Positions 31,543-50,287 of a stretch of DNA of 64,000 nt are shown piece by piece. The DNA is from Trypanosoma brucei. Taxonomy: Eukaryota. A program made the position numbers and the translations under genes. Every line of letters starts with the position of its first letter. Positions within the stretch are counted from its first letter, which is position 1. The notes below the pieces were generated by a model, which was given only the letters and a program-made list of their open reading frames with translations, had not been told where the DNA came from and made no database searches. The stretch covers positions 32,001-96,000 of the forward strand of contig CP000070.1 in NCBI GenBank assembly GCA_000002445.1, read 5' to 3'.

Positions 31543-33971
31543 TATGGGGAAGCATAGAGGAGAATTGTTTCGATCCTCTCTTACAACAAATGTGGCAGGC
31601 AGTACATAACACCGATAGCATGGAAAACAAAACCATAGGCGTCACTCTATTTTCTCACCTTACCCCCTCCCCCCAATAACAGATGCGGCGTCAAGTGGTG
31701 AAAGTTGTCTTGCACAAACAACACAATATCGAGTAATTTGTAGCGCCTTTTTTTTTCTTGTTTAACTGTTAGTACGAGGAGAACATCATGATTGTTATTC
31801 CATTTTTTTCCTCGCGCGGCGTTGAAGGTGCTGAAAGTAAAAGTATGAAAACATTATCGAAATGAGTATAACCGCCAGGCATAGGAGCAACATCCCAAAC
31901 ACCTCAAAAATCACTACATGAGACTCCTTTTCCTTTGAAGCGCGCTCATTTCCATTAAATCCCGCATCGGTTACATTTGGAAATGAGGCCCCAACCAACA
32001 GAAAGTTATAAAATGCCAACATCCCAACACCTGTTGGTTGCGCACCGCAGCGCGAAATAGTAATTATACCAAAAATATGCTTACCTTTCCCCCCTTACGA
32101 TTCCTAATTTAAGAAACAATAATTCCCCCCTCCTCCAACCTGAGTGTGCTATTAATCAAATAAAAACAACAATAACAATAACATGAACATGAACACAATG
32201 GAGTTGGTGACTGGTTAAGTAACACTGAGCCGCGTTACAGCCAACTTCGAACATAACAATGTAACAAGAGGCGCCGTATGGAAAGTGCCGTTTGTTGTCT
32301 GAAATTACAGCCTAAGGATTGGCGCAGCACACATTACTCATATGATAATCTCACTTTTGCAATTCAGATATTGGGAAATGCAACCTTCCGCAAACCCCAT
32401 CATCACGCATTTCCATTTAAAAAGGGGTTTAAACCTGATAAAAAAAAAAAAAGAAAGCAAAGAGAAAATGTTATCCTCCTCCACCCCTGTTGTGTGGAGA
32501 CTAAAAAAGCGGACGTTACTGAAAAGCCATTGTTAGTTTCGTGACCAAACACGCATGATTAGAGAACCATTTACGCACCATTACGAACCGTCTCGCTTCA
32601 CCGTGCAACAATTAAAGCTGCAAAGATATGAAAAAAAAAAATGAGTTCCAGAATTGCATTGCCACGGCGACGCGATAATGCGATGAAAGATAAATGTCTA
32701 TAAAAAAAATATATGACCAAATCGGTATTAAAAATTTTAAAAACAGCGTACTTCATTACATAACATAACACTGCACTACAAAGCAACCCACCACCATAAT
32801 GGAGCGAATGCAAAAACACAATGCCCAGTGAAAAAAAAAACGCAAGTGGAAAGACATTCTACAACAGCGACCAAATCATGCATTAAACAAATTCCTTTCC
32901 CTCCAATAAAACTCACATTCGGTTAATTACACACCTGGCGCCCACAAGTCAAAATGTGCAATGCGCTAAAGATGTTGTGACTGCAGGATTGTACATCTCA
33001 AATAACATTCTCACAAGTATTGACTCTTCCGGCAGGTCTTCCAACTGAAGGTACGAATAATCAAACGCCGTCAACTCGCAACATTTAAAAGAAAATTATT
33101 TCTCTCCTTTCTTTCAGGGACTTTGAAATTGGAGGTTCTGCACAAATCCTCAATCCTCCGGCAGGTGTAAGCTCCACTTCATTTCAGTGGTCAGATACAT
33201 AACTAAATGAAAGTAAAGTATAACTAAACGACAGAGAGATTAAAGCAAAGGGGAAAACAAGTAACGACACTTACAAACAAGAAACAAGATAGTAAAATAA
33301 GTAAGTGGAAAGAAACTTAGGGAATCTAGAAGAAACATGCAGATGAAATAAAAAGAATATGGAGTCCCAAAACACATCACAACGATAAAAACTGAATACC
33401 CCATGACAATAAAAATGGAAACAATTGTGTGGAAGAAAACACTGACAAAATAAATAAAAATAAAATAACAATATCACTATTTGAAAAAAAAAAAGAATCA
33501 AGGGCAAAACGAGTCAGATAAAATAGCAGATGGGTATAGCCGCTATTTGAACACTTTCACAATAAATCCATCAACAAACGATGGGTAAGATGCGGTGTCT
33601 CAACAATGCAGCGTCTGCACACAGAAATCTCCAGTGTCATGTGCCCACCCGAATGTTTAAAGACGCCACACCAATAGGATAGCATTTAAAAAACAATAAT
33701 AACAGAAAAGATAAATATGTGGGAGACGTATGGTTTAAAAAAATGAGTAAAAAGACTTTTTTGTAGCACTGGTGCGGTACGTAAAAATTTAGTATACCAT
33801 TGAATTAAATAAGAATATAATAATGAAACGACCAGCGAAGAAAGCATAGGGGTGAGAAACGCCGTAAGTGGCCCCTCCCGTTGCAGTAGCGCCCTGTAAA
33901 CACGTGTTTAGCTAACGCCTAACTTCGACCTGTCGACACGGTAAGAGGATTAGGGAAACAGTTGACAGCTT

Positions 33972-35120
33972 TTAAAAATGTGCGGCAGCACTGTGAGAAA
34001 GTGCTGCAAGAAGGATCAGTAATGTGTATCCTCCTATAGATTCTGCATAGCTGCCGTCATTACCAACTTCTGCTTCCTCACCCTCATCGTCACCCAATTC
34101 CTGCACATGATCATCGTCAGAAATTTCCACTTTTCCTTCAGGATCCTTCTTCGGTACTTCCTCAACTTCCGTTCTTTCCGTCTTTTCCTTGTCCTCTGGA
34201 ACCTCCACGTTTCCTTCAGGATCCTTCTTCGGTACTTCCTCAACTTCCGTTCTTTCCGTCTTTTCCTTGTCCTCTGGAACCTCCACGTTTCCTTCAGGAT
34301 CCTTCTTCGGTACTTCCTCAACTTCCGTTCTTTCCGTCTTTTCCTTGTCCTCTGGAACCTCCACGTTTCCCTCAAATTCCTCCCTCGAAATCTCTTGAAC
34401 ATCCGCTTTTTCCGTCTCTGCCGTCCTTTCGGCTTCCTCAGCTGCCTTGTGTGCGTTGCTTTCAGCTGCCCTTGCTGCAACTCTTGCTTCGCTGGCACGC
34501 CGCACAGCAGCCTCTAATTGATCATATTCCGCCCTGAGATCAGCCATACCATCCGTCAAGATTTTGCAGATATCGCCAGTGAAGAACTCACACCCAAATT
34601 CCACAGCCTTTTTCAGCACCCAGGAGTTAACTCCTCTATTTGGGAGACTGCAGCCTCTCGCAATTCGTCTTGCAGTACTGGCGGCACTATTGTCCTCTGC
34701 AACACTTTTCAGATAATCATCAACCGGAGCGGTCTTTCCGGCTGCGAGCAGTGGGGCACGGGCCGCGTATTGCTCCACATCCGACAGGGCCGTCTTGGCG
34801 GCATTCTCCGCGCTCTCTGCTTCCTTTAGGGCAGCGCGAGCGCGTCCGACGGCCTCCTCCACCTTGGGAGTACTCGAAAAGGCATCCTCCGCTCGTCTCA
34901 CGGCATCTTGGCAACCTTCTCTCGCTTTAGAGGCATCCGAGACATTCGCTGCCGCCAACGCTTTGAGGGCCTTCACACCGAAGGGTATTCCATGCAGCGC
35001 TTCTGAAAAGAGACATGCCGCACTTACATGGCTCACTGTGTTTTGAGACCCTTCCTCAATTATGGAGTCGGCGGTGACATACGTAAGTATAGCAAGCAAG
35101 CACAAAAAACGGGCAGTCAT
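33972..35120 (-). CDS. Ala/Glu-rich predicted GPI-anchored surface protein, array copy 1 (382 aa, subtype A, three 26-aa repeats)
   Basis: N-terminal signal peptide MTARFLCLLAILTYVTADS. ~20% Ala, acidic. 5-6 conserved Cys. 3 x EGNVEVPEDKEKTERTEVEEVPKKDP. C-terminal GNDGSYAESIGGYTLLILLAALSHSAAAHF (small-residue omega region + hydrophobic tail = GPI signal). Possibly related to GARP/BARP-type alanine-rich trypanosome surface proteins; not verified. Confidence 0.8.
   Translation of the reverse strand: MTARFLCLLAILTYVTADSIIEEGSQNTVSHVSAACLFSEALHGIPFGVKALKALAAANVSDASKAREGCQDAVRRAEDAFSSTPKVEEAVGRARAALKEAESAENAAKTALSDVEQYAARAPLLAAGKTAPVDDYLKSVAEDNSAASTARRIARGCSLPNRGVNSWVLKKAVEFGCEFFTGDICKILTDGMADLRAEYDQLEAAVRRASEARVAARAAESNAHKAAEEAERTAETEKADVQEISREEFEGNVEVPEDKEKTERTEVEEVPKKDPEGNVEVPEDKEKTERTEVEEVPKKDPEGNVEVPEDKEKTERTEVEEVPKKDPEGKVEISDDDHVQELGDDEGEEAEVGNDGSYAESIGGYTLLILLAALSHSAAAHF
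34130..34365 (-). repeat. 78-bp in-frame tandem repeat (3 copies) inside surface gene copy 1
   Basis: ttccttcaggatccttcttcggtacttcctcaacttccgttctttccgtcttttccttgtcctctggaacctccacgt is repeated with period 78. Copy 2 has 2 copies (~37290-37445), copy 5 has 1, copies 3 and 4 have none. Confidence 0.85.
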
Positions 35121-35394
35121 GATTATCCCGAATTGCTGTAGTGGTAGTTGTTAAAATGAATGTTAAGTCTAAATGCAGGCAACAGTAGGAAAGAGTGGGT
35201 AAATGTTTGTATTAATAATTTCCCCCCTCGTGGAAAGCAGTTGTAACATGGGAGGAGGCATGGATGTTGTTCTTTTTGTGATTTTTAAAATTTTTTGTGT
35301 TCAATTTTCTGAGCATTGCTTTATTGGAAGAGATGACGGGACTTATTGCTTTTTCACAGTTGCCGTCGCTAACGGTAGTTGCGTTTCACTATGG

Positions 35395-36071
35395 TTATTC
35401 TTTCGACTGTCCCTGTTCAGCTATAAGTTCTCGAATGGCGATTGTGCTTCCAGATTTTATACTTGCAGTTTTTAATCGGGAGAGAACGCTTTCCAGTCGC
35501 TCGAAAGGATCATCACTAACTGCAGCCAGAATGCTTTTCAAATAACTCAAGTCGGTTACAAGTTGTTCTACTGCAAGGGCCGCAGCATCGTCGCTATTAA
35601 GTGGGAAACACATTGTAATGTTTTGTCAGGAAAGAACTGAAGAACGGCCTTTACAGCTTCCATCAGTCCATTCATAACTACTTGAAATCGATCATACTTC
35701 ATGATAGATTGCGAATCCTTTAAGAGGTCTTCCACGCGCTCTGCTTCTCGCCGTGCAAATGATTCCAGCACCTTAGGTTGCTCGAATATGTGTGCAAGCT
35801 CAGTTTGAGTATAAAAATTAATTTGCTCTGCAATATCGTCCCGCCTACACAAACTGTTTTTAACGTTTCTTCCGTCCTCAGCACCAACACATACCTTCGG
35901 AGGAGTAGAATCAATTTTAATACTAAGCTGCCTTACTGCCTCAAAGCAGGAAATAAGCTCAACATTCCTCTCCACACACTGCAAAATGGGAGTTAAGCAA
36001 GTGGAAAGACATTCTACAACAGCGATCAAATCATGCATTAAACAAACTCCTTTCCCTCCAATAAAACTCAC
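35395..36071 (-). pseudogene. Truncated 3' fragment of the 784-aa (COG7-like) gene with a ~630-bp internal deletion (array unit 1)
   Basis: ORFs 35568..36071 and 35395..35613 together reproduce the C-terminal region of the intact gene (…ECLSTCLTPILQCVERN… and …LAVEQLVTDLSYLKSILAAV…AEQGQSKE). They lack the 5' two-thirds. Deletion junction at taatg|ttttgtcagg. Confidence 0.85.
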
Positions 36072-37131
36072 ATTCGGTTAATTACACACCTGGCGCCCAC
36101 AAGTCAAAATGTGCAATGCGCTAAAGATGTTGTGACTGCAGGATTGTACATCTCAAATAATATTCTCACAAGTATTGACTCTTCCGGCAGGTCTTCCAAC
36201 TGAAGGTACGAATAATCAAACGCCGTCAACTCGCAACATTTAAAGGAAAATTATTTCTCTCCTTTCCTTCAGAGACTTTGAAATTGGAGGTTCTGCACAA
36301 ATCCTCAATCCTCCGGCAGGTGTAAGCTCCACTTCATTTCAGTGGTCAGATACATAACTAAATGAAAGTAAAGTATAACTAAACGACAGAGAGATTAAAG
36401 CAAAGGGGAAAACAAGCAACGACACTTACAAACAAGAAACAAGATAGTAAAATAAGTAAGTGGAAAGAAACTTAGGGAATCTAGAAGAAACATGCAGATG
36501 AAATAAAAAGAATATGGAGTCCCAAAACACATCGCAACGATAAAAACTGAATACCCCATGACAATAAAAATGGAAACAATTGTGTGGAGGGAAGGGTTAT
36601 AAAAGAAAAAAAATAATAATAATGTTATCGTCTTTTTTTATCAAAAAAAATAAATAAATAAAAATGAAGTGAAGCAGATAAAATAGCAGATGGGTATAGC
36701 CGCTATTTGAACACTTTCACAATAAATCCATCAACAAACGATGGGTAAGATGCGGTGTCTCGACAATGCAGCGTCTGCACACAGAAATCTACAGTGTCAT
36801 GCGCCCACCCGAATGTTTAAAGACGCCACACCAATAGGATAGCATTTAAAAAACAATAATAACAGAAAAGATAAATATGTGGGAGACGTATGGTTCAAAA
36901 AAATGAGTAAAAAGACTTTTTTGTAGCACTGGTGCGGTACGTAAAAATTTAGTATACCATTGAATTAAATAAGAATATAATAATGAAACGACCAGCGAAG
37001 AAAGCATAGGGGTGAGAAACGCCGTAAGTGGCCCCTCCCGTTGCAGTAGCGCCCTGTAAACACGTGTTTAGCTAACGCCTAACTTCGACCTGTCGACACG
37101 GTAAGAGGATTAGGGAAACAGTTGACAGCTT

Positions 37132-38202
37132 TTAAAAATGTGCGGCAGCACTGTGAAAAAGTGCTGCAAGAAGGATCAGTAATGTGTATCCTCCTATAGA
37201 TTCTGCATAGCTGCCGTCATTACCAACTTCTGCTTCCTCACCCTCATCGTCACCCAATTCCTGCACATGATCATCGTCAGAAATTTCCACTTTTCCCTCA
37301 GGATCCTTCTTCGGTACTTCCTCAACTTCCGTTCTTTCCGTCTTTTCCTTGTCCTCTGGAACCTCCACGTTTCCTTCAGGATCCTTCTTCGGCACTTCCT
37401 CAACTTCCGTTCTTCCCGTCTTTTCCTTGTCCTCTGGAACCTCCACGTTTCCCTCAAATTCCTCCCTCGAAATCTCTTGAACATCCGCTTCTTCCGTCTC
37501 TGCCGTCCTTTCGGCTTCCTCAGCTGCCTTGCGTGCGTTGCTTTCAGCTGCCCTTGCTGCAACTCTTGCTTCGCCGGCACGCCGCACAGCAGCCTCTAAT
37601 TGATCATATTCCGCCCTGAGATCAACCATACGCGTCCTCGCGATCCTACATATTTCACCCATGAAAATAGCACATGCGGATTCCACAGCCTGTGTCAGCA
37701 CCCAGGAGTTAACTCCTCTATTTGGGAGACTGCAGCCTCTCGCAATTCGTCTTGCAGTACTGGCGGCACTATTGTCCTCTGCAACACTTTTCAGATAATC
37801 ATCAATCGGAGCGGTCTTTCCGGCTGCGAGCAGTGGGGCACGGGCCGCGTATTGCTCCACATCCGACAGGGCCGTCTTGGCGGCATTCTCCGCGCTCTCT
37901 GCTTCCTTTAGGGCAGCGCGAGCGCGTCCGACGGCCTCCTCCGCTTTGGGATTATTCCAAGAGGCATCCTCCGCTCGTCTCACGGCATCTTGGCAACCTT
38001 CTCTCGCTTTAGAGGCATCCGAGACATTCGCTGCCGCCAACGCTTTGAGGGCCTTCACACCGAAGGGTATTCCATGCAGCGCTTCTGAAAAGAGACATGC
38101 CGCACTTACATGACTCACTGTGTTTTGAGACCCTTCCTCAATTATGGAGTCGGCGGTGACATACGTAAGTATAGCAAGCAAGCACAAAAAACGGGCAGTC
38201 AT
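37132..38202 (-). CDS. Ala/Glu-rich predicted GPI-anchored surface protein, array copy 2 (356 aa, subtype A, two 26-aa repeats)
   Basis: Same signal peptide and GPI signal as copy 1. Differs from copy 1 in the central segment (VLTQAVESACAIFMGEICRIARTRMVDL vs VLKKAVEFGCEFFTGDICKILTDGMADL). Confidence 0.8.
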   Translation of the reverse strand: MTARFLCLLAILTYVTADSIIEEGSQNTVSHVSAACLFSEALHGIPFGVKALKALAAANVSDASKAREGCQDAVRRAEDASWNNPKAEEAVGRARAALKEAESAENAAKTALSDVEQYAARAPLLAAGKTAPIDDYLKSVAEDNSAASTARRIARGCSLPNRGVNSWVLTQAVESACAIFMGEICRIARTRMVDLRAEYDQLEAAVRRAGEARVAARAAESNARKAAEEAERTAETEEADVQEISREEFEGNVEVPEDKEKTGRTEVEEVPKKDPEGNVEVPEDKEKTERTEVEEVPKKDPEGKVEISDDDHVQELGDDEGEEAEVGNDGSYAESIGGYTLLILLAALFHSAAAHF

Positions 38203-38476
38203 GATTATCCCGAGTTGCTGTAGTGGTAGTTGTTAAAATGAATGTTAAGTCTAAATGCAGGCAACAGTAGGAAAGAGTGGGTAAATGTTTGTATTAATAA
38301 TTTCCCCCCTCGTGGAAAGCAGTTGTAACATGGGAGGAGGCATGGATGTTGTTCTTTTTGTGATTTTTAAAATTTTTTGTGTTAAATTTTCTGAGCATTG
38401 CTTTATTGGAAGAGATGACGGGACTTATTGCTTTTTCACAGTTGCCGTCGCTAACGGTAGTTGCGTTTCACTATGG

Positions 38477-39775
38477 TTATTCTTTCGACTGTCCCTGTTC
38501 AGCTATAAGTTCTCGAATGGCGATTGTGCTTCCAGATTTTATACTTGCAGTTTTTAATCGGGAGAGAACGCTTTCCAGTCGCTCGAAAGGATCATCACTA
38601 ACTGCAGCCAGAATGCTTTTCAAATAACTCAAGTCGGTTACAAGTTGTTCTACTGCAAGGGCCGCAGCATCGTCGCTATTAAGTGGGAAACACATTATAA
38701 TGTTGGCCACTTTAGACTCAATAAAGTCCGATACCGCCGTGCGCACAATATCATCTAACCAATATTCCGTTACTTCTTCGAGTAACTCTTCAATGCCGTC
38801 GAACCGTCCCTCGCTGCCACCCCGTAATGATTCGAGTGCTAATGGTATTTCCACAATGGCTTCACCAAAGCCGCGCACCATTTCACTAGGCGCAAGATGT
38901 AATGGCGTGTGTAGCACAGAATTGGAAATCACAGCGCTTCCTCCGTTACTCGACTGTAACCTCCAGAGTGGTTGCGACTCATAACCGTCAGCTGTGGCAA
39001 TAACGGGAGCAATGACAGTTTGTTTTATAGCCTGCTGGCATTCAGCAGCACAAATCACCAGTACATTGTTTAGTGGCCGCCACAGCTGTTCACTTAGTTG
39101 ACTATTGATAGACTCAACCTCAGTTGGACGTAGTCGGCGCACCTCCGCAGATTTGACATAGTCTTCGCACATTTTCTGCGTAGACAGAAGCAATTGTTGA
39201 ACAATTTTGCGTAACGCTGAAAGGCGCTCTAACAACTCCGTCTGGTGCGTGTGAGGTGCGGGTTGAAAAAATGTCAGCGACTGGACGAGTGCCACCTTCC
39301 ATCGGCTCACACAGATCGGTAATGTTTTGTCAGGAAAGAACTGAAGAACGGCCTTTACAGCTTCCATCAGTCCATTCATAACTACTTGAAATCGATCATA
39401 CTTCATGATAGATTGCGAATCCTTTAAGAGGTCTTCCACGCGCTCTGCTTCTCGCCGTGCAAATGATTCCAGCACCTTAGGTTGCTCGAATATGTGTGCA
39501 AGCTCAGTTTGAGTATAAAAATTAATTTGCTCTGCAATATCGTCCCGCCTACACAAACTGTTTTTAACGTTTCTTCCGTCCTCAGCACCAACACATACCT
39601 TCGGAGGAGTAGAATCAATTTTAATACTAAGCTGCCTTACTGCCTCAAAGCAGGAAATAAGCTCAACATTCCTCTCCACACACTGCAAAATGGGAGTTAA
39701 GCAAGTGGAAAGACATTCTACAACAGCGACCAAATCATGCATTAAACAAATTCCTTTCCCTCCAATAAAACTCAC
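38477..39775 (-). pseudogene. Truncated 3' fragment (C-terminal 432 codons, undeleted) of the 784-aa gene (array unit 2)
   Basis: Translation is collinear and near-identical to residues ~353-784 of ORF 47933..50287. It begins abruptly at the unit junction. No upstream part of the gene is present. Confidence 0.85.
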
Positions 39776-40834
39776 ATTCGGTTAATTACACACCTGGCGC
39801 CCACAAGTCAAAATGTGCAATGCGCTAAAGATGTTGTGACTGCAGGATTGTACATCTCAAATAATATTCTCACAAGTATTGACTCTTCCGGCAGGTTTTC
39901 CAACTGAAGGTACGAATAATCAAACGCCGTCAACTCGCAACATTTAAAAGAAAATTATTTCTCTCCTTTCTTTCAGGGACTTTGAAATTGGAGGTTCTGC
40001 ACAAATCCTCAATCCTCCGGCAGGTGTAAGCTCCACTTCATTTCAGTGGTCAGATACATAACTAAATGAAAGTAAAGTATAACTAAACGACAGAGAGATT
40101 AAAGCAAAGGGGAAAACAAGCAACGACACTTACAAACAAGAAACAAGATAGTAAAATAAGTAAGTGGAAAGAAACTTAGGGAATCTAGAAGAAACATGCA
40201 GATGAAATAAAAAGAATATGGAGTCCCAAAACACATCGCAACGATAAAAACTGAATACCCCATGACAATAAAAATGGAAACAATTGTGTGGAGGGAAGGG
40301 TTATAAAAGAAAAAAAATAATAATAATGTTATCGTCTTTTTTTATCAAAAAAAATAAATAAATAAAAATGAAGTGAAGCAGATAAAATAGCAGATGGGTA
40401 TAGCCGCTATTTGAACACTTTCACAATAAATCCATCAACAAACGATGGGTAAGATGCGGTGTCTCAACAATGCAGCGTCTGCACACAGAAATCTCCAGTG
40501 TCATGTGCCCACCCGAATGTTTAAAGACGCCACACCAATAGGATAGCATTTAAAAAACAATAATAACAGAAAAGATAAATATGTGGGAGACGTATGGTTT
40601 AAAAAAATGAGTAAAAAGACTTTTTTGTAGCACTGGTGCGGTACGTAAAAATTTAGTATACCATTGAATTAAATAAGAATATAATAATGAAACGACCAGC
40701 GAAGAAAGCATAGGGGTGAGAAACGCCGTAAGTGGCCCCTCCCGTTGCAGTAGCGCCCTGTAACACGTGTTTAGCTAACGCCTAACTTCGACCTGTCGAC
40801 ACGGTAAGAGGATTAGGGAAACAGTTGACAGCTT

Positions 40835-41746
40835 TTAAAAATGTGCGGCAGCACTGTGAAAAAGTGCTGCAAGAAGGATCAGTAATGTGTATCCTCCTAT
40901 AGATTCTGCATAGCTGCCGTCATTACCAACTTCTGCTTCCTCACCCTCATCGTCACCCAATTCCTGCACATGATCATCGTCAGAAATTTCCACTTTTCCT
41001 TCAGGATCCTTCTTCGGCACTTCCTTAACTTTCGCTTTTTCCGTCTCTGCCGTCCTTTCGGCTTCCTCAGCTGCCTTGTGTGCGTTGCTTTCAGCTGCCC
41101 TTGCTGCAACTCTTGCTTCGCTGGCACGCCGCACAGCAGCCTCTAATTGATCATATTCCGCCCTGAGATCAGCCATACGCGCCCTCGCAGTGTTGCAGAT
41201 AACTGTCATGAAAACGGCACAACCGGATTCCACAGCCTGTGTCAGTACCCAGGAACTAACTTCAAGTGGGGCATTGCAGTCTCTCGCAATTCGTCTTGCA
41301 GTACTGGCGGCACTATTGTCCTCTGCAACACTTTTCAGATAATCATCAACCAGAGCTACATTGTTGTTCGCGAGCGCTGAGGCATTGGCAGCGTATTGCT
41401 CCACATCCGACAGGGCCGTCTTGGCGGCATTCTCCGCGCTCTCTGCTTCCTTTAGGGCAGCGCGAGCGCGTCCGACGGCCTCCTCCACCTTGGGAGTACT
41501 CGAAAAGGCATCCTCCGCTCGTCTCACGGCATCTTGGCAACCTTCTCTCGCTTTAGAGGCATCCGAGACATTCGCTGCCGCCGACGTCTTGAACACTTTG
41601 ACACTGTTGGGTACTCCATGCAGCGCTTCCGACATGAGACATGCCGCACTTACATGACTCACTGTGTCTTGAAACCCTTCCCCACCTTTGGGACCGGTGG
41701 TGACATACATAAGTATAGCAAGCAAGCACAAAAAACGGGCAGTCAT
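40835..41746 (-). CDS. Ala/Glu-rich predicted GPI-anchored surface protein, array copy 3 (303 aa, subtype B, no 26-aa repeat)
   Basis: Shares signal peptide, Cys positions, central Ala-rich helical region and GPI signal. Divergent N-terminal third (TTGPKGGEGFQDTVSHVSAACLMSEALHGVPNSVKVFKTSAAANV…ANASALANNNVALVDDY…). Confidence 0.8.
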   Translation of the reverse strand: MTARFLCLLAILMYVTTGPKGGEGFQDTVSHVSAACLMSEALHGVPNSVKVFKTSAAANVSDASKAREGCQDAVRRAEDAFSSTPKVEEAVGRARAALKEAESAENAAKTALSDVEQYAANASALANNNVALVDDYLKSVAEDNSAASTARRIARDCNAPLEVSSWVLTQAVESGCAVFMTVICNTARARMADLRAEYDQLEAAVRRASEARVAARAAESNAHKAAEEAERTAETEKAKVKEVPKKDPEGKVEISDDDHVQELGDDEGEEAEVGNDGSYAESIGGYTLLILLAALFHSAAAHF

Positions 41747-42020
41747 GATTATCCCGAATTGCTGTAGTGGTAGTTGTTAAAATGAATGTTAAGTCTAAAT
41801 GCAGGCAACAGTAGGAAAGAGTGGGTAAATGTTTGTATTAATAATTTCCCCCCTCGTGGAAAGCAGTTGTAACATGGGAGGAGGCATGGATGTTGTTCTT
41901 TTTGTGATTTTTAAAATTTTTTGTGTTCAATTTTCTGAGCATTGCTTTATTGGAAGAGATGACGGGACTTATTGCTTTTTCACAGTTGCCGTCGCTAACG
42001 GTAGTTGCGTTTCACTATGG

Positions 42021-42693
42021 TTATTCTTTCGACTGTCCCTGTTCAGCTATAAGTTCTCGAATGGCGATTGTGCTTCCAGATTTTATACTTGCACTTTTTA
42101 ATCGGGAGAGAACGCTTTCCAGTCGCTCGAAAGGATCATCACTAACTGCAGCCAGAATGCTTTTCAAATAACTCAAGTCGGTTACAAAATGACAGCGACT
42201 GGACGAGTGCCACCTTCCATCGGCTCACACAGATCGGTAATGTTTTGTCAGGAAAGAACTGAAGAACGGCCTTTACAGCTTCCATCAGTCCATTCATAAC
42301 TACTTGAAATCGATCATACTTCATGATAGATTGCGAATCCTTTAAGAGGTCTTCCACGCGCTCTGCTTCTCGCCGTGCAAATGATTTCAGCACCTTAGGT
42401 TGCTCGAATATGTGTGCAAGCTCAGTTTGAGTATAAAAATTAATTTGCTCTGCAATATCGTCCCGCCTACACAAACTGTTTTTAACGTTTCTTCCGTCCT
42501 CAGCACCAACACATACCTTCGGAGGAGTAGAATCAATTTTAATACTAAGCTGCCTTACTGCCTCAAAGCAGGAAATAAGCTCAACATTCCTCTCCACACA
42601 CTGCAAAATGGGAGTTAAGCAAGTGGAAAGACATTCTACAACAGCGACCAAATCATGCATTAAACAAATTCCTTTCCCTCCAATAAAACTCAC
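42021..42693 (-). pseudogene. Truncated 3' fragment of the 784-aa gene with a ~630-bp internal deletion and frameshift (array unit 3)
   Basis: ORF 42142..42693 matches the intact gene over …ECLSTCLTPILQ…KVALVQSL, then goes out of frame at the deletion junction gttacaa|aatgacagcgactgg. The extreme 3' end through the ancestral stop position (42021) is retained. Confidence 0.85.
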
Positions 42694-43753
42694 ATTCGGT
42701 TAATTACACACCTGGCGCCCACAAGTCAAAATGTGCAATGCGCTAAAGATGTTGTGACTGCAGGATTGTACATCTCAAATAATATTCTCACAAGTATTGA
42801 CTCTTCCGGCAGGTCTTCCAACTGAAGGTACGAATAATCAAACGCCGTCAACTCGCAACATTTAAAAGAAAATTATTTCTCTCCTTTCTTTCAGGGACTT
42901 TGAAATTGGAGGTTCTGCACAAATCCTCAATCCTCCGGCAGGTGTAAGCTCCACTTCATTTCAGTGGTCAGATACATAACTAAATGAAAGTAAAGTATAA
43001 CTAAACGACAGAGAGATTAAAGCAAAGGGGAAAACAAGCAACGACACTTACAAACAAGAAACAAGATAGTAAAATAAGTAAGTGGAAAGAAACTTAGGGA
43101 ATCTAGAAGAAACATGCAGATGAAATAAAAAGAATATGGAGTCCCAAAACACATCGCAACGATAAAAACTGAATACCCCATGACAATAAAAATGGAAACA
43201 ATTGTGTGGAGGGAAGGGTTATAAAAGAAAAAAAATAATAATAATGTTATCGTCTTTTTTTATCAAAAAAAATAAATAAATAAAAATGAAGTGAAGCAGA
43301 TAAAATAGCAGATGGGTATAGCCGCTATTTGAACACTTTCACAATAAATCCATCAACAAACGATGGGTAAGATGCGGTGTCTCAACAATGCAGCGTCTGC
43401 ACACAGAAATCTCCAGTGTCATGTGCCCACCCGAATGTTTAAAGACGCCACACCAATAGGATAGCATTTAAAAAACAATAATAACAGAAAAGATAAATAT
43501 GTGGGAGACGTATGGTTTAAAAAAATGAGTAAAAAGACTTTTTTGTAGCACTGGTGCGGTACGTAAAAATTTAGTATACCATTGAATTAAATAAGAATAT
43601 AATAATGAAACGACCAGCGAAGAAAGCATAGGGGTGAGAAACGCCGTAAGTGGCCCCTCCCGTTGCAGTAGCGCCCTGTAAACACGTGTTTAGCTAACGC
43701 CTAACTTCGACCTGTCGACACGGTAAGAGGATTAGGGAAACAGTTGACAGCTT

Positions 43754-44665
43754 TTAAAAATGTGCGGCAGCACTGTGAGAAAGTGCTGCAAGAAGGATCA
43801 GTAATGTGTATCCTCCTATAGATTCTGCATAGCTGCCGTCATTACCAACTTCTGCTTCCTCACCCTCATCGTCACCCAATTCCTGCACATGATCATCGTC
43901 AGAAATTTCCACTTTTCCTTCAGGATCCTTCTTCGGCACTTCCTTAACTTTCGCTTTTTCCGTCTCTGCCGTCCTTTCGGCTTCCTCAGCTGCCTTGTGT
44001 GCGTTGCTTTCAGCTGCCCTTGCTGCAACTCTTGCTTCGCTGGCACGCCGCACAGCAGCCTCTAATTGATCATATTCCGCCCTGAGATCAGCCATACGCG
44101 TCCTCGCAGTGTTGCAGATAACTGTCATGAAAACGGCACAACCGGATTCCACAGCCTGTGTCAGTACCCAGGAACTAACTTCAAGTGGGGCATTGCAGTC
44201 TCTCGCAATTCGTCTTGCAGTACTGGCGGCACTATTGTCCTCTGCAACACTTTTCAGATAATCATCAACCAGAGCTACATTGTTGTTCGCGAGCGCTGAG
44301 GCATTGGCAGCGTATTGCTCCACATCCGACAGGGCCGTCTTGGCGGCATTCTCCGCGCTCTCTGCTTCCTTTAGGGCAGCGCGAGCGCGTCCGACGGCCT
44401 CCTCCACCTTGGGAGTACTCGAAAAGGCATCCTCCGCTCGTCTCACGGCATCTTGGCAACCTTCTCTCGCTTTAGAGGCATCCAAGACATTCGCTGCCGC
44501 CGACGTCTTGAACACTTTGACACTGTTGGGTACTCCATGCAGCGCTTCCGACATGAGACATGCCGCACTTACATGACTCACTGTGTCTTGAAACCCTTCC
44601 CCACCTTTGGGACCGGTGGTGACATACGTAAGTATAGCAAGCAAGCACAAAAAACGGGCAGTCAT
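43754..44665 (-). CDS. Ala/Glu-rich predicted GPI-anchored surface protein, array copy 4 (303 aa, subtype B; 4 aa differences from copy 3)
   Basis: Near-identical to copy 3. Differences: ILT/ILM, NVL/NVS, ART/ARA, LSH/LFH. Confidence 0.8.
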   Translation of the reverse strand: MTARFLCLLAILTYVTTGPKGGEGFQDTVSHVSAACLMSEALHGVPNSVKVFKTSAAANVLDASKAREGCQDAVRRAEDAFSSTPKVEEAVGRARAALKEAESAENAAKTALSDVEQYAANASALANNNVALVDDYLKSVAEDNSAASTARRIARDCNAPLEVSSWVLTQAVESGCAVFMTVICNTARTRMADLRAEYDQLEAAVRRASEARVAARAAESNAHKAAEEAERTAETEKAKVKEVPKKDPEGKVEISDDDHVQELGDDEGEEAEVGNDGSYAESIGGYTLLILLAALSHSAAAHF

Positions 44666-44939
44666 GATTATCCCGAATTGCTGTAGTGGTAGTTGTTAAA
44701 ATGAATGTTAAGTCTAAATGCAGGCAACAGTAGGAAAGAGTGGGTAAATGTTTGTATTAATAATTTCCCCCCTCGTGGAAAGCAGTTGTAACATGGGAGG
44801 AGGCATGGATGTTGTTCTTTTTGTGATTTTTAAAATTTTTTGTGTTCAATTTTCTGAGCATTGCTTTATTGGAAGAGATGACGGGACTTATTGCTTTTTC
44901 ACAGTTGCCGTCGCTAACGGTAGTTGCGTTTCACTATGG

Positions 44940-45612
44940 TTATTCTTTCGACTGTCCCTGTTCAGCTATAAGTTCTCGAATGGCGATTGTGCTTCCAGAT
45001 TTTATACTTGCAGTTTTTAATCGGGAGAGAACGCTTTCCAGTCGCTCGAAAGGATCATCACTAACTGCAGCCAGAATGCTTTTCAAATAACTCAAGTCGG
45101 TTACAAAATGACAGCGACTGGACGAGTGCCACCTTCCATCGGCTCACACAGATCGGTAATGTTTTGTCAGGAAAGAACTGAAGAACGGCCTTTACAGCTT
45201 CCATCAGTCCATTCATAACTACTTGAAATCGATCATACTTCATGATAGATTGCGAATCCTTTAAGAGGTCTTCCACGCGCTCTGCTTCTCGCCGTGCAAA
45301 TGATTCCAGCACCTTAGGTTGCTCGAATATGTGTGCAAGCTCAGTTTGAGTATAAAAATTAATTTGCTCTGCAATATCGTCCCGCCTACACAAACTGTTT
45401 TTAACGTTTCTTCCGTCCTCAGCACCAACACATACCTTCGGAGGAGTAGAATCAATTTTAATACTAAGCTGCCTTACTGCCTCAAAGCAGGAAATAAGCT
45501 CAACATTCCTCTCCACACACTGCAAAATGGGAGTTAAGCAAGTGGAAAGACATTCTACAACAGCGACCAAATCATGCATTAAACAAATTCCTTTCCCTCC
45601 AATAAAACTCAC
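44940..45612 (-). pseudogene. Truncated 3' fragment of the 784-aa gene with the same ~630-bp deletion as unit 3 (array unit 4)
   Basis: Same junction gttacaa|aatgacagcgactgg as unit 3. ORF 45061..45612. Confidence 0.85.
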
Positions 45613-46665
45613 ATTCGGTTAATTACACACCTGGCGCCCACAAGTCAAAATGTGCAATGCGCTAAAGATGTTGTGACTGCAGGATTGTACATCTCAAATA
45701 ATATTCTCACAAGTATTGACTCTTCCGGCAGGTTTTCCAACTGAAGGTACGAATAATCAAACGCCGTCAACTCGCAACATTTAAAAGAAAATTATTTCTC
45801 TCCTTTCTTTCAGGGACTTTGAAATTGGAGGTTCTGCACAAATCCTCAATCCTCCGGCAGGTGTAAGCTCCACTTCATTTCAGTGGTCAGATACATAACT
45901 AAATGAAAGTAAAGTATAACTAAACGACAGAGAGATTAAAGCAAAGGGGAAAACAAGCAACGACACTTACAAACAAGAAACAAGATAGTAAAATAAGTAA
46001 GTGGAAAGAAACTTAGGGAATCTAGAAGAAACATGCAGATGAAATAAAAAGAATATGGAGTCCCAAAACACATCGCAACGATAAAAACTGAATACCCCAT
46101 GACAATAAAAATGGAAACAATTGTGTGGAAGAAAACACTGACAAAATAAATAAAAATAAAATAACAATATCACTATTTGAAAAAAAAAAGAATCAAGGGC
46201 AAAACGAGTCAGATAAAATAGCAGATGGGTATAGCCGCTATTTGAACACTTTCACAATAAATCCATCAACAAACGATGGGTAAGATGCGGTGTCTCGACA
46301 ATGCAGCGTCTGCACACAGAAATCTACAGTGTCATGCGCCCACCCGAATGTTTAAAGACGCCACACCAATAGGATAGCATTTAAAAAACAATAATAACAG
46401 AAAAGATAAATATGTGGGAGACGTATGGTTCAAAAAATGAGTAAAAAGACTTTTTTGTAGCACTGGTGCGGTACGTAAAAATTTAGTATACCATTGAATT
46501 AAATAAGAATATAATAATGAAACGACCAGCGAAGAAAGCATAGGGGTGAGAAACGCCGTAAGTGGCCCCTCCCGTTGCAGTAGCGCCCTGTAAACACGTG
46601 TTTAGCTAACGCCTAACTTCGACCTGTCGACACGGTAAGAGGATTAGGGAAACAGTTGACAGCTT

Positions 46666-47658
46666 TTAAAAATGTGCGGCAGCACTGTGAAAAAGTGCTG
46701 CAAGAAGGATCAGTAATGTGTATCCTCCTATAGATTCTGCATAGCTGCCGTCATTACCAACTTCTGCTTCCTCACCCTCATCGTCACCCAATTCCTGCAC
46801 ATGATCATCGTCAGAAATTTCCACTTTTCCTTCAGGATCCTTCTTCGGCACTTCCTCAACTTCCGTTCTTCCCGTCTTTTCCTTGTCCTCTGGAACCTCC
46901 ACGTTTCCCTCAAATTCCTCCCTCGAAATCTCTTGAACATCCGCTTCTTCCGTCTCTGCCGTCCTTTCGGCTTCCTCAGCTGCCTTGCGTGCGTTGCTTT
47001 CAGCTGCCCTTGCTGCAACTCTTGCTTCGCTGGCACGCCGCACAGCAGCCTCTAATTGATCATATTCCGCCCTGAGATCAACCATACGCGTCCTCGCGAT
47101 CCTACATATTTCACCCATGAAAATAGCACATGCGGATTCCACAGCCTGTGTCAGCACCCAGGAGTTAACTCCTCTATTTGGGAGACTGCAGCCTCTCGCA
47201 ATTCGTCTTGCAGTACTGGCGGCACTATTGTCCTCTGCAACACTTTTCAGATAATCATCAATCGGAGCGGTCTTTCCGGCTGCGAGCAGTGGGGCACGGG
47301 CCGCGTATTGCTCCACATCCGACAGGGCCGTCTTGGCGGCATTCTCCGCGCTCTCTGCTTCCTTTAGGGCAGCGCGAGCGCGTCCGACGGCCTCCTCCAC
47401 CTTGGGAGTACTCGAAAAGGCATCCTCCGCTCGTCTCACGGCATCTTGGCAACCTTCTCTCGCTTTAGAGGCATCCGAGACATTCGCTGCCGCCGACGCT
47501 TTGAGGGCCTTCACACCGAAGGGTATTCCATGCAGCGCTTCTGAAAAGAGACATGCCGCACTTACATGACTCACTGTGTTTTGAGACCCTTCCTCAATTA
47601 TGGAGTCGGCGGTGACATACGTAAGTATAGCAAGCAAGCACAAAAAACGGGCAGTCAT
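46666..47658 (-). CDS. Ala/Glu-rich predicted GPI-anchored surface protein, array copy 5 (330 aa, subtype A, one 26-aa repeat). Sits immediately downstream of the intact 784-aa gene.
   Basis: Same signal peptide and GPI signal. Essentially copy 2 with one fewer 78-bp repeat. Confidence 0.8.
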   Translation of the reverse strand: MTARFLCLLAILTYVTADSIIEEGSQNTVSHVSAACLFSEALHGIPFGVKALKASAAANVSDASKAREGCQDAVRRAEDAFSSTPKVEEAVGRARAALKEAESAENAAKTALSDVEQYAARAPLLAAGKTAPIDDYLKSVAEDNSAASTARRIARGCSLPNRGVNSWVLTQAVESACAIFMGEICRIARTRMVDLRAEYDQLEAAVRRASEARVAARAAESNARKAAEEAERTAETEEADVQEISREEFEGNVEVPEDKEKTGRTEVEEVPKKDPEGKVEISDDDHVQELGDDEGEEAEVGNDGSYAESIGGYTLLILLAALFHSAAAHF

Positions 47659-47932
47659 GATTATCCCGAATTGCTGTAGTGGTAGTTGTTAAAATGAATG
47701 TTAAGTCTAAATGCAGGCAACAGTAGGAAAGAGTGGGTAAATGTTTGTATTAATAATTTCCCCCCTCGTGGAAAGCAGTTGTAACATGGGAGGAGGCATG
47801 GATGTTGTTCTTTTTGTGATTTTTAAAATTTTTTGTGTTCAATTTTCTGAGCATTGCTTTATTGGAAGAGATGACGGGACTTATTGCTTTTTCACAGTTG
47901 CCGTCGCTAACGGTAGTTGCGTTTCACTATGG

Positions 47933-50287
47933 TTATTCTTTCGACTGTCCCTGTTCAGCTATAAGTTCTCGAATGGCGATTGTGCTTCCAGATTTTATAC
48001 TTGCAGTTTTTAATCGGGAGAGAACGCTTTCCAGTCGCTCGAAAGGATCATCACTAACTGCAGCCAGAATGCTTTTCAAATAACTCAAGTCGGTTACAAG
48101 TTGTTCTACTGCAAGGGCCGCAGCATCGTCGCTATTAAGTGGGAAACACATTATAATGTTGGCCACTTTAGACTCAATAAAGTCCGATACCGCCGTGCGC
48201 ACAATATCATCTAACCAATATTCCGTTACTTCTTCGAGTAACTCTTCAATGCCGTCGAACCGTCCCTCGCTGCCACCCCGTAATGATTCGAGTGCTAATG
48301 GTATTTCCACAATGGCTTCACCAAAGCCGCGCACCATTTCACTAGGCGCAAGATGTAATGGCGTGTGTAGCACAGAATTGGAAATCACAGCGCTTCCTCC
48401 GTTACTCGACTGTAACCTCCAGAGTGGTTGCGACTCATAACCGTCAGCTGTGGCAATAACGGGAGCAATGACAGTTTGTTTTATAGCCTGCTGGCATTCA
48501 GCAGCACAAATCACCAGTACATTGTTTAGTGGCCGCCACAGCTGTTCACTTAGTTGACTATTGATAGACTCAACCTCAGTTGGACGTAGTCGGCGCACCT
48601 CCGCAGATTTGACATAGTCTTCGCACATTTTCTGCGTAGACAGAAGCAATTGTTGAACAATTTTGCGTAACGCTGAAAGGCGCTCTAACAACTCCGTCTG
48701 GTGCGTGTGAGGTGCGGGTTGAAAAAATGTCAGCGACTGGACGAGTGCCACCTTCCATCGGCTCACACAGATCGGTAATGTTTTGTCAGGAAAGAACTGA
48801 AGAACGGCCTTTACAGCTTCCATCAGTCCATTCATAACTACTTGAAATCGATCATACTTCATGATAGATTGCGAATCCTTTAAGAGGTCTTCCACGCGCT
48901 CTGCTTCTCGCCGTGCAAATGATTCCAGCACCTTAGGTTGCTCGAATATGTGTGCAAGCTCAGTTTGAGTATAAAAATTAATTTGCTCTGCAATATCGTC
49001 CCGCCTACACAAACTGTTTTTAACGTTTCTTCCGTCCTCAGCACCAACACATACCTTCGGAGGAGTAGAATCAATTTTAATACTAAGCTGCCTTACTGCC
49101 TCAAAGCAGGAAATAAGCTCAGGATTCCTCTCCACACACTGCAAAATGGGAGTTAAGCAAGTGGAAAGACATTCTACAATTTCATCTGCCATTAAACGCA
49201 AAACTTTCACGGGTTGCGACTCGGGCCCTTCAGAAATCTCCGCATTATCCGTGATATCGCGATTACCGCTGTAAACATGTGCCAACTGCATTAAATAGTC
49301 TAACTGGTCGGTGAGTGCACATCCTAAGGAAGGTATAAGTTGCGTTTTCAGCACCTCTGCCGCACGCACGGGAGAAATTGGATGCCTTGAAACTTTTGAC
49401 TCAGAGTGATGTAGCAGACAAAACACTTTTTCCTTTTCGGAGGCTATGCTCTCTGCGGAAAATTGCTGAAGAACAGCATCAGCCCTCCCAATAGTATCAA
49501 GTACCTTGAGGAGATGAGCAGCACGGTCTACTACTCTTCGGCGTAACTGTTCCATACATTCGGTCTCCACCACGCGTTGCAGGAGTTGTTCATGCCTCTC
49601 AACTGCTTCCAGCTGCTTTCCACCAAACGTTACCTCTAATTTCTGAAGGTCTGCGAGGTTTTGCCGCACCTCCCTAATAGACACCGCCACTAAGTCTATG
49701 TCCACCTCTGACACCGAAACACGAAGTTTCTCCATAATATCGTCCAATTGCTTCATATTGCTATCAACTTCCGATGCCTTCTTAAGTGTTTCAGAGCAGC
49801 GCATGAGCTTCTTCTGCGTTTTCTTCAGATCATTGAGCTGTGCAACGTATGGTTTGGAGATCATTTCTACCGCTGGTTGCGCCTCCTCTCTTATTTTGCA
49901 AAGTGCCTGTTGAAGTTGTTGAACTTCCGTAACCATACGGCCGACTTCCAGCCCAGTTCGGGGGAGCCGAACGAGCGCCTGTGTGATAGTGTCGTCAACA
50001 GAACTTGCAACCTCCTGTGAGTATGAATGCAATCTGCCGTACAAATTTGTGATGCGCCCTTCCAACTCCGCATCGGTTTCTACCCCATCAGGATTCGCCG
50101 AAGAAATACATTGCAAAGAGGTATTTATCCACTGAATAACGTCAAAGTTCTCACTTGCTAATTCATCTAACGAGAACGCGAACGACGCGGGATCAGTGGA
50201 AGGTGAAGTACCAATCGAAGGGTTTGGATTTGGTACGTCCTGCATTTTTGGGCTTAAAGAAGAAGGAAAGTTAAGGCAGCAGTGCAC
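47933..50287 (-). CDS. Intact 784-aa helical protein, tentatively conserved oligomeric Golgi complex subunit 7 (COG7)-like. Source of the fragments in the array.
   Basis: The N-terminal ENFDVIQWINTSL followed by a long coiled-coil-like region resembles the COG7 N-terminus (FDVKEWINAAF…). Length is similar to COG7 (~770 aa). The assignment is from motif recall only. Confidence 0.4.
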   Translation of the reverse strand: MHCCLNFPSSLSPKMQDVPNPNPSIGTSPSTDPASFAFSLDELASENFDVIQWINTSLQCISSANPDGVETDAELEGRITNLYGRLHSYSQEVASSVDDTITQALVRLPRTGLEVGRMVTEVQQLQQALCKIREEAQPAVEMISKPYVAQLNDLKKTQKKLMRCSETLKKASEVDSNMKQLDDIMEKLRVSVSEVDIDLVAVSIREVRQNLADLQKLEVTFGGKQLEAVERHEQLLQRVVETECMEQLRRRVVDRAAHLLKVLDTIGRADAVLQQFSAESIASEKEKVFCLLHHSESKVSRHPISPVRAAEVLKTQLIPSLGCALTDQLDYLMQLAHVYSGNRDITDNAEISEGPESQPVKVLRLMADEIVECLSTCLTPILQCVERNPELISCFEAVRQLSIKIDSTPPKVCVGAEDGRNVKNSLCRRDDIAEQINFYTQTELAHIFEQPKVLESFARREAERVEDLLKDSQSIMKYDRFQVVMNGLMEAVKAVLQFFPDKTLPICVSRWKVALVQSLTFFQPAPHTHQTELLERLSALRKIVQQLLLSTQKMCEDYVKSAEVRRLRPTEVESINSQLSEQLWRPLNNVLVICAAECQQAIKQTVIAPVIATADGYESQPLWRLQSSNGGSAVISNSVLHTPLHLAPSEMVRGFGEAIVEIPLALESLRGGSEGRFDGIEELLEEVTEYWLDDIVRTAVSDFIESKVANIIMCFPLNSDDAAALAVEQLVTDLSYLKSILAAVSDDPFERLESVLSRLKTASIKSGSTIAIRELIAEQGQSKE

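What the first reader, a model, noticed from the sequence alone, without database searches (positions are those of the whole stretch)
32826..47700. Five-copy tandem array of Ala/Glu-rich, signal-peptide + GPI-signal surface protein genes
Five paralogous - strand genes (382, 356, 303, 303 and 330 aa) share an identical cleavable signal peptide (MTARFLCLLAILTYVTADS/TTG) and conserved cysteines. They have a long Ala/Glu-rich predicted helical core. Their identical C-terminus (…GNDGSYAESIGGYTLLILLAAL(S/F)HSAAAHF) has the shape of a GPI-addition signal. This combination typifies trypanosome stage-specific surface coat or surface antigen families. I cannot place the family with certainty. Composition and organisation recall GARP/BARP-type alanine-rich surface proteins, but the match is unverified and it could be a different or undescribed family. 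Arrayed, diverging copies next to housekeeping genes suggest a highly expressed surface molecule under diversifying pressure.
Basis: partly seen in the sequence, partly recalled or inferred. Interest (0 to 1): 0.8.

Follow-up and report, generated by a model that had tools for sequence, protein, structure and literature searches.

The report
Known trypanosome MISP surface-protein gene array

Summary
Five paralogous minus-strand ORFs of 382, 356, 303, 303 and 330 aa sit at the stated coordinates. They share a signal-peptide-like N-terminus, six invariant cysteines and a GPI-signal-like C-terminus. All five are exact matches to T. b. brucei TREU927 proteins XP_845660/662/664/666/668. The 382-aa copy is about 98% identical to PDB 5VTL (Tb427.07.360, "metacyclic invariant surface protein") and hits Pfam GARP (PF16731) at 6e-51. 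This is the MISP family (Tb927.7.360–440, Fam50, alias SGE1) of Casas-Sanchez et al. 2023. That paper reports five paralogues, MISP-A with 1–3 26-residue repeats, MISP-B with none, a triple-helix-bundle ectodomain, surface expression on tsetse salivary-gland stages, and a knockout that still develops in the fly. The ligand and function remain unknown. My additions are minor. The repeat unit runs 32842–49179 and carries a truncated 3' copy of the upstream COG7 gene. Unit boundaries share a 23-bp microhomology. Non-coding flanks are 99–100% identical, while the ectodomain coding region is about 11% variable (dN/dS about 1) and mosaic. Novelty: already known. Interest: low.

The parts
33972..35120 (-). 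MISP360 (Tb927.7.360; MISP-A, three 26-aa repeats; 382 aa)
   Evidence: ORF. Exact match to XP_845660/AAZ12101. About 98% identical to PDB 5VTL over residues 26-234. Pfam GARP 6e-51.
37132..38202 (-). MISP380 (Tb927.7.380; MISP-A, two repeats; 356 aa)
   Evidence: ORF. Exact match to XP_845662. Alignment.
40835..41746 (-). MISP400 (Tb927.7.400; MISP-B, no repeat; 303 aa)
   Evidence: ORF. Exact match to XP_845664/AAZ12105 (the alternating accession order places this copy as 400). Pfam GARP 1e-44. Extra sequon at N121.
43754..44665 (-). MISP420 (Tb927.7.420; MISP-B, no repeat; 303 aa)
   Evidence: ORF. Exact match to XP_845666/AAZ12107. The N59 sequon is lost (NVL) in this copy.
46666..47658 (-). 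MISP440 (Tb927.7.440; MISP-A, one repeat; 330 aa)
   Evidence: ORF. Exact match to XP_845668.
47933..50245 (-). Intact COG7-like gene (770 aa from its first ATG). Its 3' 1247 bp (47933-49179) form the head of the ancestral repeat unit.
   Evidence: Pfam COG7 9e-19. Exact match to XP_845669, named COG7 by UniRef. Homology of 46820-49179 to 37364-39723 at 99.4%.
38477..39742 (-). Truncated COG7 copy (Tb927.7.390; 421 aa). It holds the complete duplicated 3' segment.
   Evidence: Identical to COG7-like residues 376-770. Exact match to XP_845663.
35568..36038 (-). Truncated, internally deleted COG7 copy (Tb927.7.370; 156 aa)
   Evidence: XP_845661. The deletion shifts the frame.
42142..42660 (-). 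Truncated, internally deleted COG7 copy (Tb927.7.410; 172 aa)
   Evidence: XP_845665.
45061..45579 (-). Truncated, internally deleted COG7 copy (Tb927.7.430; 172 aa)
   Evidence: AAZ12108. The identical protein is present in T. b. gambiense and T. b. equiperdum.
32842..32864 (.). 23-bp microhomology GCAAGTGGAAAGACATTCTACAA at the distal end of the array. The same 23 bp occur at 49157-49179 inside COG7 and at every unit junction (35997, 39701, 42619, 45538).
   Evidence: Junction listing. BLAST boundaries.
49157..49179 (.). Matching 23-bp microhomology inside the intact COG7-like coding sequence. This is the proximal boundary of the repeated DNA.
34126..34374 (-). 78-bp tandem repeat (3.2 copies, 98% matches) encoding the 26-aa acidic stalk repeat of MISP360
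   Evidence: The MISP380 equivalent is at 37286-37456 (2.2 copies).
34543..34612 (-). Hypervariable patch (codons ~170-193, around the Cys177-Cys185 disulphide) with three allelic forms: 360, 380/440 and 400/420. Equivalents lie at 37625-37694, 41172-41241, 44091-44160 and 47081-47150.
   Evidence: The paper places non-conserved residues near the apical pocket.

Best explanation
The region is the MISP gene array (metacyclic invariant surface proteins, alias SGE1; genes Tb927.7.360, 380, 400, 420 and 440) on chromosome 7 of Trypanosoma brucei brucei TREU927.

Shown:
- Each gene encodes a protein with an N-terminal signal peptide, a ~210-residue Ala/Glu-rich triple-helical-bundle ectodomain of the GARP/Fam50 type, an acidic disordered C-terminal stalk and a C-terminal GPI-addition signal.
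- The ectodomain is pinned by two disulphides, Cys36-Cys157 and Cys177-Cys185.
- Stalk length is set by 0-3 copies of a 26-residue repeat.
- The proteins are displayed on the surface of tsetse salivary-gland stages (epimastigotes to metacyclics), alongside BARP and metacyclic VSG.

Inferred function: the stalk holds the bundle at different heights within or above the VSG coat. The membrane-distal hydrophobic pocket, where paralogue differences cluster, probably binds a still unknown ligand. This would resemble the related three-helix-bundle receptors HpHbR and FHR.

Inferred origin of the array: tandem duplication of a ~3.7-kb unit made of the 3' part of COG7, the intergenic region, MISP and its downstream region. 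The duplication used a 23-bp microhomology. Internal deletions in three COG7 relics followed. Ongoing gene conversion keeps the non-coding DNA nearly identical while the ectodomain variants persist.
For: Identity:
- All five ORFs are exact matches to TREU927 proteins on a 2,205,233-bp contig.
- PDB 5VTL 'Tb427.07.360 metacyclic invariant surface protein' matches at E=1.4e-123 and about 98% identity.
- Pfam GARP matches at 5.8e-51 and 1.1e-44.
- The paper's repeat motifs EVEEVPKKDPEGNVEVPEDKEKTERT and DVQEISREEFEGNVEVPEDKEKTERT, and its MS peptide SVAEDNSAASTAR, are present verbatim.
- Paralogue number, sub-families and repeat counts match the paper.

Structure and biology (PMC10089363):
- 1.82 A crystal structure, disulphides and apical pocket.
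- SignalP and PredGPI predictions.
- Surface localisation by confocal microscopy and immuno-SEM.
- Peak expression in salivary-gland and metacyclic forms.
- A CRISPR knockout that is viable in tsetse.
- Independent single-cell RNA-seq names the same five genes SGE1, Fam50 lineage iv.

Array anatomy.

Concerted evolution and mosaicism:
- Variable sites are 4/549 and 2/274 in the upstream non-coding or relic DNA, against 101/912 in the MISP coding sequence.
- Site patterns are mutually incompatible.
- Proteins of T. b. gambiense and T. b. equiperdum are A/B chimeras.
Against: Nothing argues against the identification. The gaps concern mechanism.

- GPI anchoring rests on prediction plus surface localisation. 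No direct anchor chemistry appears in the parts of the paper I read.
- No ligand is known.
- Vaccination with MISP360 gave no protection, and the knockout had no significant phenotype in the fly.
- Two studies disagree on stage: metacyclic-predominant (MISP paper) versus epimastigote-specific (SGE1 paper).
- dN/dS of about 1 fits relaxed constraint as well as a mix of purifying and diversifying selection.
Confidence: 0.93

Rival explanations
1. An undescribed surface-antigen family.
For: GenBank/RefSeq still label the genes 'hypothetical protein, conserved'.
Against: Exact sequence identity to the genes named MISP in PMC10089363 and SGE1 in PMC7007551. A deposited crystal structure, 5VTL. A Pfam GARP hit far above threshold.
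Confidence: 0.01
2. The genes are BARP (brucei alanine-rich protein) or direct orthologues of T. congolense GARP, rather than a separate Fam50 lineage.
For: Same Pfam family, same fold, and co-expression with BARP.
Against: BARP is encoded by 14 paralogues, Tb927.9.155xx-156xx, on chromosome 9, and almost all lack a C-terminal stalk. The MISP ectodomain is only 15% identical to GARP. A profile of the five copies reaches GARP 2Y44 only at E=2.6. The SGE1 paper assigns the family to its own Fam50 lineage, iv.
Confidence: 0.01
3. The copy number or arrangement is an assembly artefact, from expanded or collapsed near-identical repeats.
For: Units 400 and 420 are about 99.6% identical. Flanks are 99-100% identical across all units, which is the kind of sequence that Sanger-era assemblies mis-count. 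T. b. gambiense DAL972 shows only two MISP genes.
Against: Four distinct coding lengths differing by 78-bp steps were amplified by PCR and RT-PCR. KO genotyping targeted them as well. The alternating MISP / COG7-fragment / MISP / COG7 order recurs in independent assemblies of T. b. gambiense (CBH12047-12050) and T. b. equiperdum (DPX39_070015400-15700). Each of the five units carries private substitutions.
Confidence: 0.05
4. Functional rival: MISP is chiefly an adhesin, or passive coat filler, of attached salivary-gland epimastigotes (the SGE1 view). It is not a ligand receptor acting at transmission to the vertebrate.
For: Single-cell RNA-seq found the five genes expressed only in epimastigote clusters. 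CESP, a Fam50 member of T. congolense, is an adhesin, and the authors raise an adhesion role. The knockout showed a slight, non-significant drop in salivary-gland infection.
Against: Protein staining peaks on metacyclics, and MISP peptides occur in infected saliva. The knockout does not block gland colonisation. The conserved apical pocket with paralogue-specific lining suggests specific binding.
Confidence: 0.3

Closest known systems
MISP / SGE1 family of T. brucei (Tb927.7.360-440; PDB 5VTL)
   Same: Everything matches: exact protein sequences, five paralogues, A and B sub-families, the 26-aa repeats, chromosomal neighbours, signal peptide and GPI signal.
   Different: Nothing in the coding sequences. 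The paper calls the interleaved genes 'unrelated hypothetical proteins', but they are truncated COG7 duplicates. It states that all isoforms carry the Asn59 sequon, but the 420 copy here reads NVL.
BARP (brucei alanine-rich protein, Tb927.9.155xx-156xx)
   Same: Fam50/GARP-domain triple helical bundle. GPI-anchored, Ala-rich, expressed in salivary-gland stages, and encoded in a tandem array.
   Different: Chromosome 9, 14 paralogues and almost no C-terminal stalk. A different lining of the apical pocket, with hydrophobic plus basic residues.
GARP of T. congolense (PDB 2Y44; Pfam PF16731)
   Different: Only about 15% sequence identity. The profile of the five copies gives E=2.6 by sequence. Different species, and a different pocket chemistry.
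Three-helix-bundle receptors HpHbR (4X0J/4E40) and factor H receptor FHR (6XZ6)
   Different: Those have defined host ligands (haptoglobin-haemoglobin, factor H) and act in bloodstream or stumpy forms. No ligand is known for MISP, and key binding residues are not conserved.

Membership tests
MISP / SGE1 (Fam50 lineage iv) | Sequence identity to Tb927.7.360/380/400/420/440 and to the crystallised Tb427.07.360 ectodomain | tested here: met
   Exact matches to XP_845660/662/664/666/668. 5VTL matches at E=1.4e-123 and about 98% identity.
MISP / SGE1 (Fam50 lineage iv) | Five paralogues in one chromosome 7 array, interleaved with Tb927.7.370/390/410/430. MISP-A has 1-3 repeats of 26 residues and MISP-B has none. 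| tested here: met
   Repeat counts are 3, 2, 0, 0 and 1. The interleaved ORFs are exact matches to AAZ12102/04/06/08.
MISP / SGE1 (Fam50 lineage iv) | Signal peptide (Met1 to Ala/Thr17) and a C-terminal GPI omega site | tested here: inconclusive
   Only a hydropathy and shape check was possible here. Hydrophobic blocks occur at residues 1-8 and the last ~22 residues and nowhere else. SignalP 4.1 and PredGPI predictions are reported in the paper.
MISP / SGE1 (Fam50 lineage iv) | Surface expression restricted to tsetse salivary-gland stages | not testable with these tools
   Taken from PMC10089363 and PMC7007551.
Pfam GARP (PF16731) / Fam50 triple-helix-bundle fold | Score above the Pfam gathering threshold across the full domain | tested here: met
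   173.2 and 152.7 bits against a 27.4-bit cut-off, covering profile positions 2-193 of 193.
Pfam GARP (PF16731) / Fam50 triple-helix-bundle fold | Triple helical bundle with a membrane-distal head stabilised by disulphides | tested here: met
   Met through about 98% identity to the solved structure 5VTL. All four disulphide cysteines (36, 157, 177, 185) are invariant in the five copies. The structure is described. No new model was computed.
BARP | Member of the chromosome 9 array Tb927.9.15520-15660, with no C-terminal stalk | tested here: not met
   These genes are the chromosome 7 loci. They carry 66-145-residue C-terminal regions. No direct sequence comparison with a BARP protein was run.
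VSG | Dimeric, hypervariable N-terminal domain, conserved VSG C-terminal domain, expression-site or subtelomeric location | tested here: not met

The most novel reading that the evidence does not exclude
The 'invariant' MISP array may in fact be a small recombining cassette system. Gene conversion homogenises the promoter-less flanks. Selection preserves and reshuffles three or more alternative versions of the pocket-lining segments, and independently the stalk length. Different T. brucei subspecies would then carry different chimeric receptors tuned to different host or vector ligands. A dimorphic ~85-bp downstream patch ({360,440} versus {380,400,420}) might contribute to the unexplained differential expression of the paralogues.
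Probability: 0.2. Interest if true: 0.4.

Novelty: already known. Interest (0 to 1): 0.1.

Why it matters
[quoted passage not shown] That work is published: the structure, the localisation, the failed vaccination and the dispensable knockout. Re-finding the array adds nothing new about the family.

The residual value is small. The duplication unit and its 23-bp boundary are now defined. The 'unrelated' interleaved genes are recognised as COG7 relics. The flanks are homogenised while the ectodomain is mosaic and about 11% variable, which bears on how paralogue diversity is kept. The open question of ligand and function is unchanged.

Tried and rejected
- An exact-protein contig look-up for the 382-aa copy found nothing on record. 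Independent assemblies were therefore assessed through cluster members instead.
- tRNA and Rfam scans of the whole window were empty.
- A profile search of PDB with the five copies did not reach GARP or FHR significantly (E=2.6 and 6.5). The relationship to those proteins rests on Pfam and on published structural comparison.
- The literature search for the interleaved gene IDs returned mostly prefix matches to unrelated genes such as Tb927.7.3700. Only the MISP papers cite them.
- I did not run the large homologue searches, structure prediction or fold search. Exact sequence matches and an existing crystal structure had already settled the question, and the shared compute was not justified.
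- I considered whether whole-domain dN/dS shows positive selection. It does not: values are 0.9-1.05, and the few values above 2 rest on fewer than 10 substitutions.
Full report
**Observation**

One search lists five minus-strand ORFs at 33972-35120 (382 aa), 37132-38202 (356 aa), 40835-41746 (303 aa), 43754-44665 (303 aa) and 46666-47658 (330 aa). Their alignment gives 84-94% identity to the first copy.

- The N-terminus MTARFLCLLAIL(T/M)YVT is shared by all five.
- Cysteines 7, 36, 70, 157, 177 and 185 are invariant.
- The C-terminus ...GNDGSYAESIGGYTLLILLAAL(S/F)HSAAAHF is identical apart from the S/F position.
- Composition is Ala 16-20% and Glu 10-15%.
- The only strongly hydrophobic stretches are the first ~8 and last ~22 residues. 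This is the shape of a secretory signal plus a GPI signal.
- Length differences come entirely from 0-3 copies of a 26-aa repeat, encoded by a 78-bp tandem repeat.

**Identity**

The 382-aa protein matches PDB 5VTL, 'Tb427.07.360 putative uncharacterized metacyclic invariant surface protein', at E=1.4e-123 and about 98% identity over residues 26-234. It also matches Pfam GARP (PF16731) at 5.8e-51 over the whole profile. The 303-aa copy gives 1.1e-44.

All five proteins are exact matches to T. b. brucei TREU927 entries XP_845660, 662, 664, 666 and 668, on a 2,205,233-bp record.

Casas-Sanchez et al. 2023 (PMC10089363) describe exactly this locus:
- Five paralogues, Tb927.7.360/380/400/420/440, on chromosome 7, members of Fam50.
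- MISP-A with one to three 26-residue repeats and MISP-B with none. The quoted motifs occur verbatim in these ORFs.
- Predicted signal peptide (Met1 to Ala/Thr17) and a predicted GPI omega site.
- A 1.82 A triple-helical-bundle structure with disulphides Cys36-Cys157 and Cys177-Cys185 and an apical hydrophobic pocket.
- Surface localisation on salivary-gland stages, peaking in metacyclics.
- No protection from vaccination with MISP360.
- A CRISPR knockout of all paralogues that still develops in tsetse.

Vigneron et al. 2020 (PMC7007551) independently named the same five genes SGE1 (Fam50 lineage iv). They reported them as epimastigote-specific.

**Anatomy beyond the finding**

Self-comparison shows five repeat units: 32842-35996, 35997-39700, 39701-42618, 42619-45537 and 45538-49179.

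- The repeated DNA begins inside the upstream gene at 47933-50245. That gene is COG7-like: Pfam COG7 at 9e-19, and UniRef names it COG7.
- Each unit therefore carries a copy of the 3' part of COG7. The copy upstream of MISP380 is complete (421-aa ORF, identical to COG7 residues 376-770).
- The copies in the other three units have internal deletions of roughly 560-680 bp that shift the frame.
- These relics are the annotated genes Tb927.7.370/390/410/430 (exact matches). The MISP paper calls them unrelated hypothetical proteins.
- Every unit junction shares the same 23 bp, GCAAGTGGAAAGACATTCTACAA. The sequence is also present once at the distal end (32842-32864) and once inside COG7 (49157-49179). 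This is the expected footprint of a first duplication by recombination at a short direct repeat (inference).

**Is the array real?**

The same alternating order recurs in two other assemblies.
- T. b. gambiense DAL972: CBH12047 MISP, 12048 COG7 fragment, 12049 MISP, 12050 COG7.
- T. b. equiperdum: DPX39_070015400 to 070015700.

The paper amplified four coding lengths differing by 78 bp. Each unit also has private substitutions. Copy-number error cannot be excluded without long reads, but an artefact is unlikely.

**Divergence pattern**

Variable sites across the five aligned units:

| Region | Variable sites / aligned columns |
|---|---|
| COG7 relic | 4 / 549 |
| 5' intergenic region | 2 / 274 |
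| MISP coding sequence | 101 / 912 |
| Downstream region | 46 / 1126 |

Of the 46 downstream sites, 32 lie in one ~85-bp dimorphic patch, with {360,440} differing from {380,400,420}.

Between sub-families the ectodomain has dS about 0.12, dN about 0.11 and dN/dS of 0.88-1.05. Replacements are concentrated in codons 17-55, 121-133, 156-165 and 170-193. The last patch has three forms.

Site patterns are mutually incompatible. For example, {380,440}|{360,400,420} conflicts with {360,440}|{380,400,420}. T. b. gambiense and T. b. equiperdum proteins are A/B chimeras. The array is therefore a mosaic shaped by gene conversion.

I infer that flanks are homogenised while ectodomain variants are retained. 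This is compatible with selection for paralogue diversity near the pocket.

**Mechanism**

Shown, by sequence here and by the cited experiments: secreted, surface-displayed, triple-helix-bundle proteins of the GARP/Fam50 fold, with a variable-length acidic disordered stalk (net charge -17 to -36).

Inferred:
- GPI anchoring. This rests on prediction plus surface localisation.
- The stalk setting the height of the bundle relative to the metacyclic VSG coat.
- The apical pocket binding an unknown ligand, by analogy with HpHbR and the factor H receptor.

An adhesin role in attached epimastigotes is the main functional rival.

**Comparison and verdict**

The genes are MISP, not BARP (chromosome 9, no stalk), not GARP (15% identity, T. 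congolense) and not VSG.

- Novelty: already known.
- Interest: low.
The family it could not name is MISP/SGE1.

Noticed in passing
window 35568-36038, 38477-39742, 42142-42660, 45061-45579 (minus strand): The four genes interleaved with the MISP copies (Tb927.7.370/390/410/430) are truncated duplicates of the 3' part of the upstream COG7-like gene (47933-50245). The MISP paper calls them unrelated hypothetical proteins. Three of them carry a frame-shifting internal deletion of ~560-680 bp. UniRef already labels them COG7.
   Followed up: yes
window 32842-32864 and 49157-49179; junctions at 35997, 39701, 42619, 45538: An identical 23-bp sequence (GCAAGTGGAAAGACATTCTACAA) marks both ends of the repeated DNA and every unit junction. 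This suggests the first duplication arose by recombination at a short direct repeat.
   Followed up: partly
window 33434-33514, 36589-36674, 40293-40378, 43211-43296, 46130-46209: A ~85-bp T-rich patch about 460-540 nt downstream of each MISP stop codon exists in two very different forms: 360 and 440 versus 380, 400 and 420. The surrounding DNA is 99-100% identical. [quoted passage not shown] It might bear on the unexplained paralogue-specific mRNA levels.
   Followed up: partly
window 43754-44665 (MISP420), codon 61: This copy reads N59-V-L instead of N-V-S, so it lacks the Asn59 N-glycosylation sequon that the paper says all isoforms share. It keeps only the MISP-B-specific Asn121 sequon.
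   Followed up: partly
proteins P0005 (T. b. gambiense, 337 aa) and P0008 (T. b. equiperdum, 329 aa) versus the window copies: The gambiense protein has a B-type N-terminal segment joined to an A-type pocket region and one repeat, plus a 7-residue C-terminal extension. The equiperdum protein has a B-type ectodomain with an A-type stalk repeat. The A/B sub-family definition (repeats versus none) therefore does not hold across subspecies, and segments are exchanged between paralogues.
   Followed up: partly
window ~23600-25550: Plus-strand ORFs end at 23605 and minus-strand ORFs begin at 25553. Cumulative GC skew peaks here. This is a convergent strand-switch region between two polycistronic units. 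No tRNA or Rfam family was detected there or anywhere else in the window.
   Followed up: partly
window 50554-52329 (minus strand): A 591-aa prenyltransferase alpha-alpha toroid protein (PF00432, 2e-86) whose match to the 304-position profile spans residues 75-572. It therefore carries large insertions relative to the family profile.
   Followed up: no
literature (PMC10089363 versus PMC7007551): The same five genes carry two names with conflicting stage assignments. MISP is described as peaking on metacyclics at the protein level. SGE1 is described as epimastigote-specific by single-cell RNA-seq.
   Followed up: no
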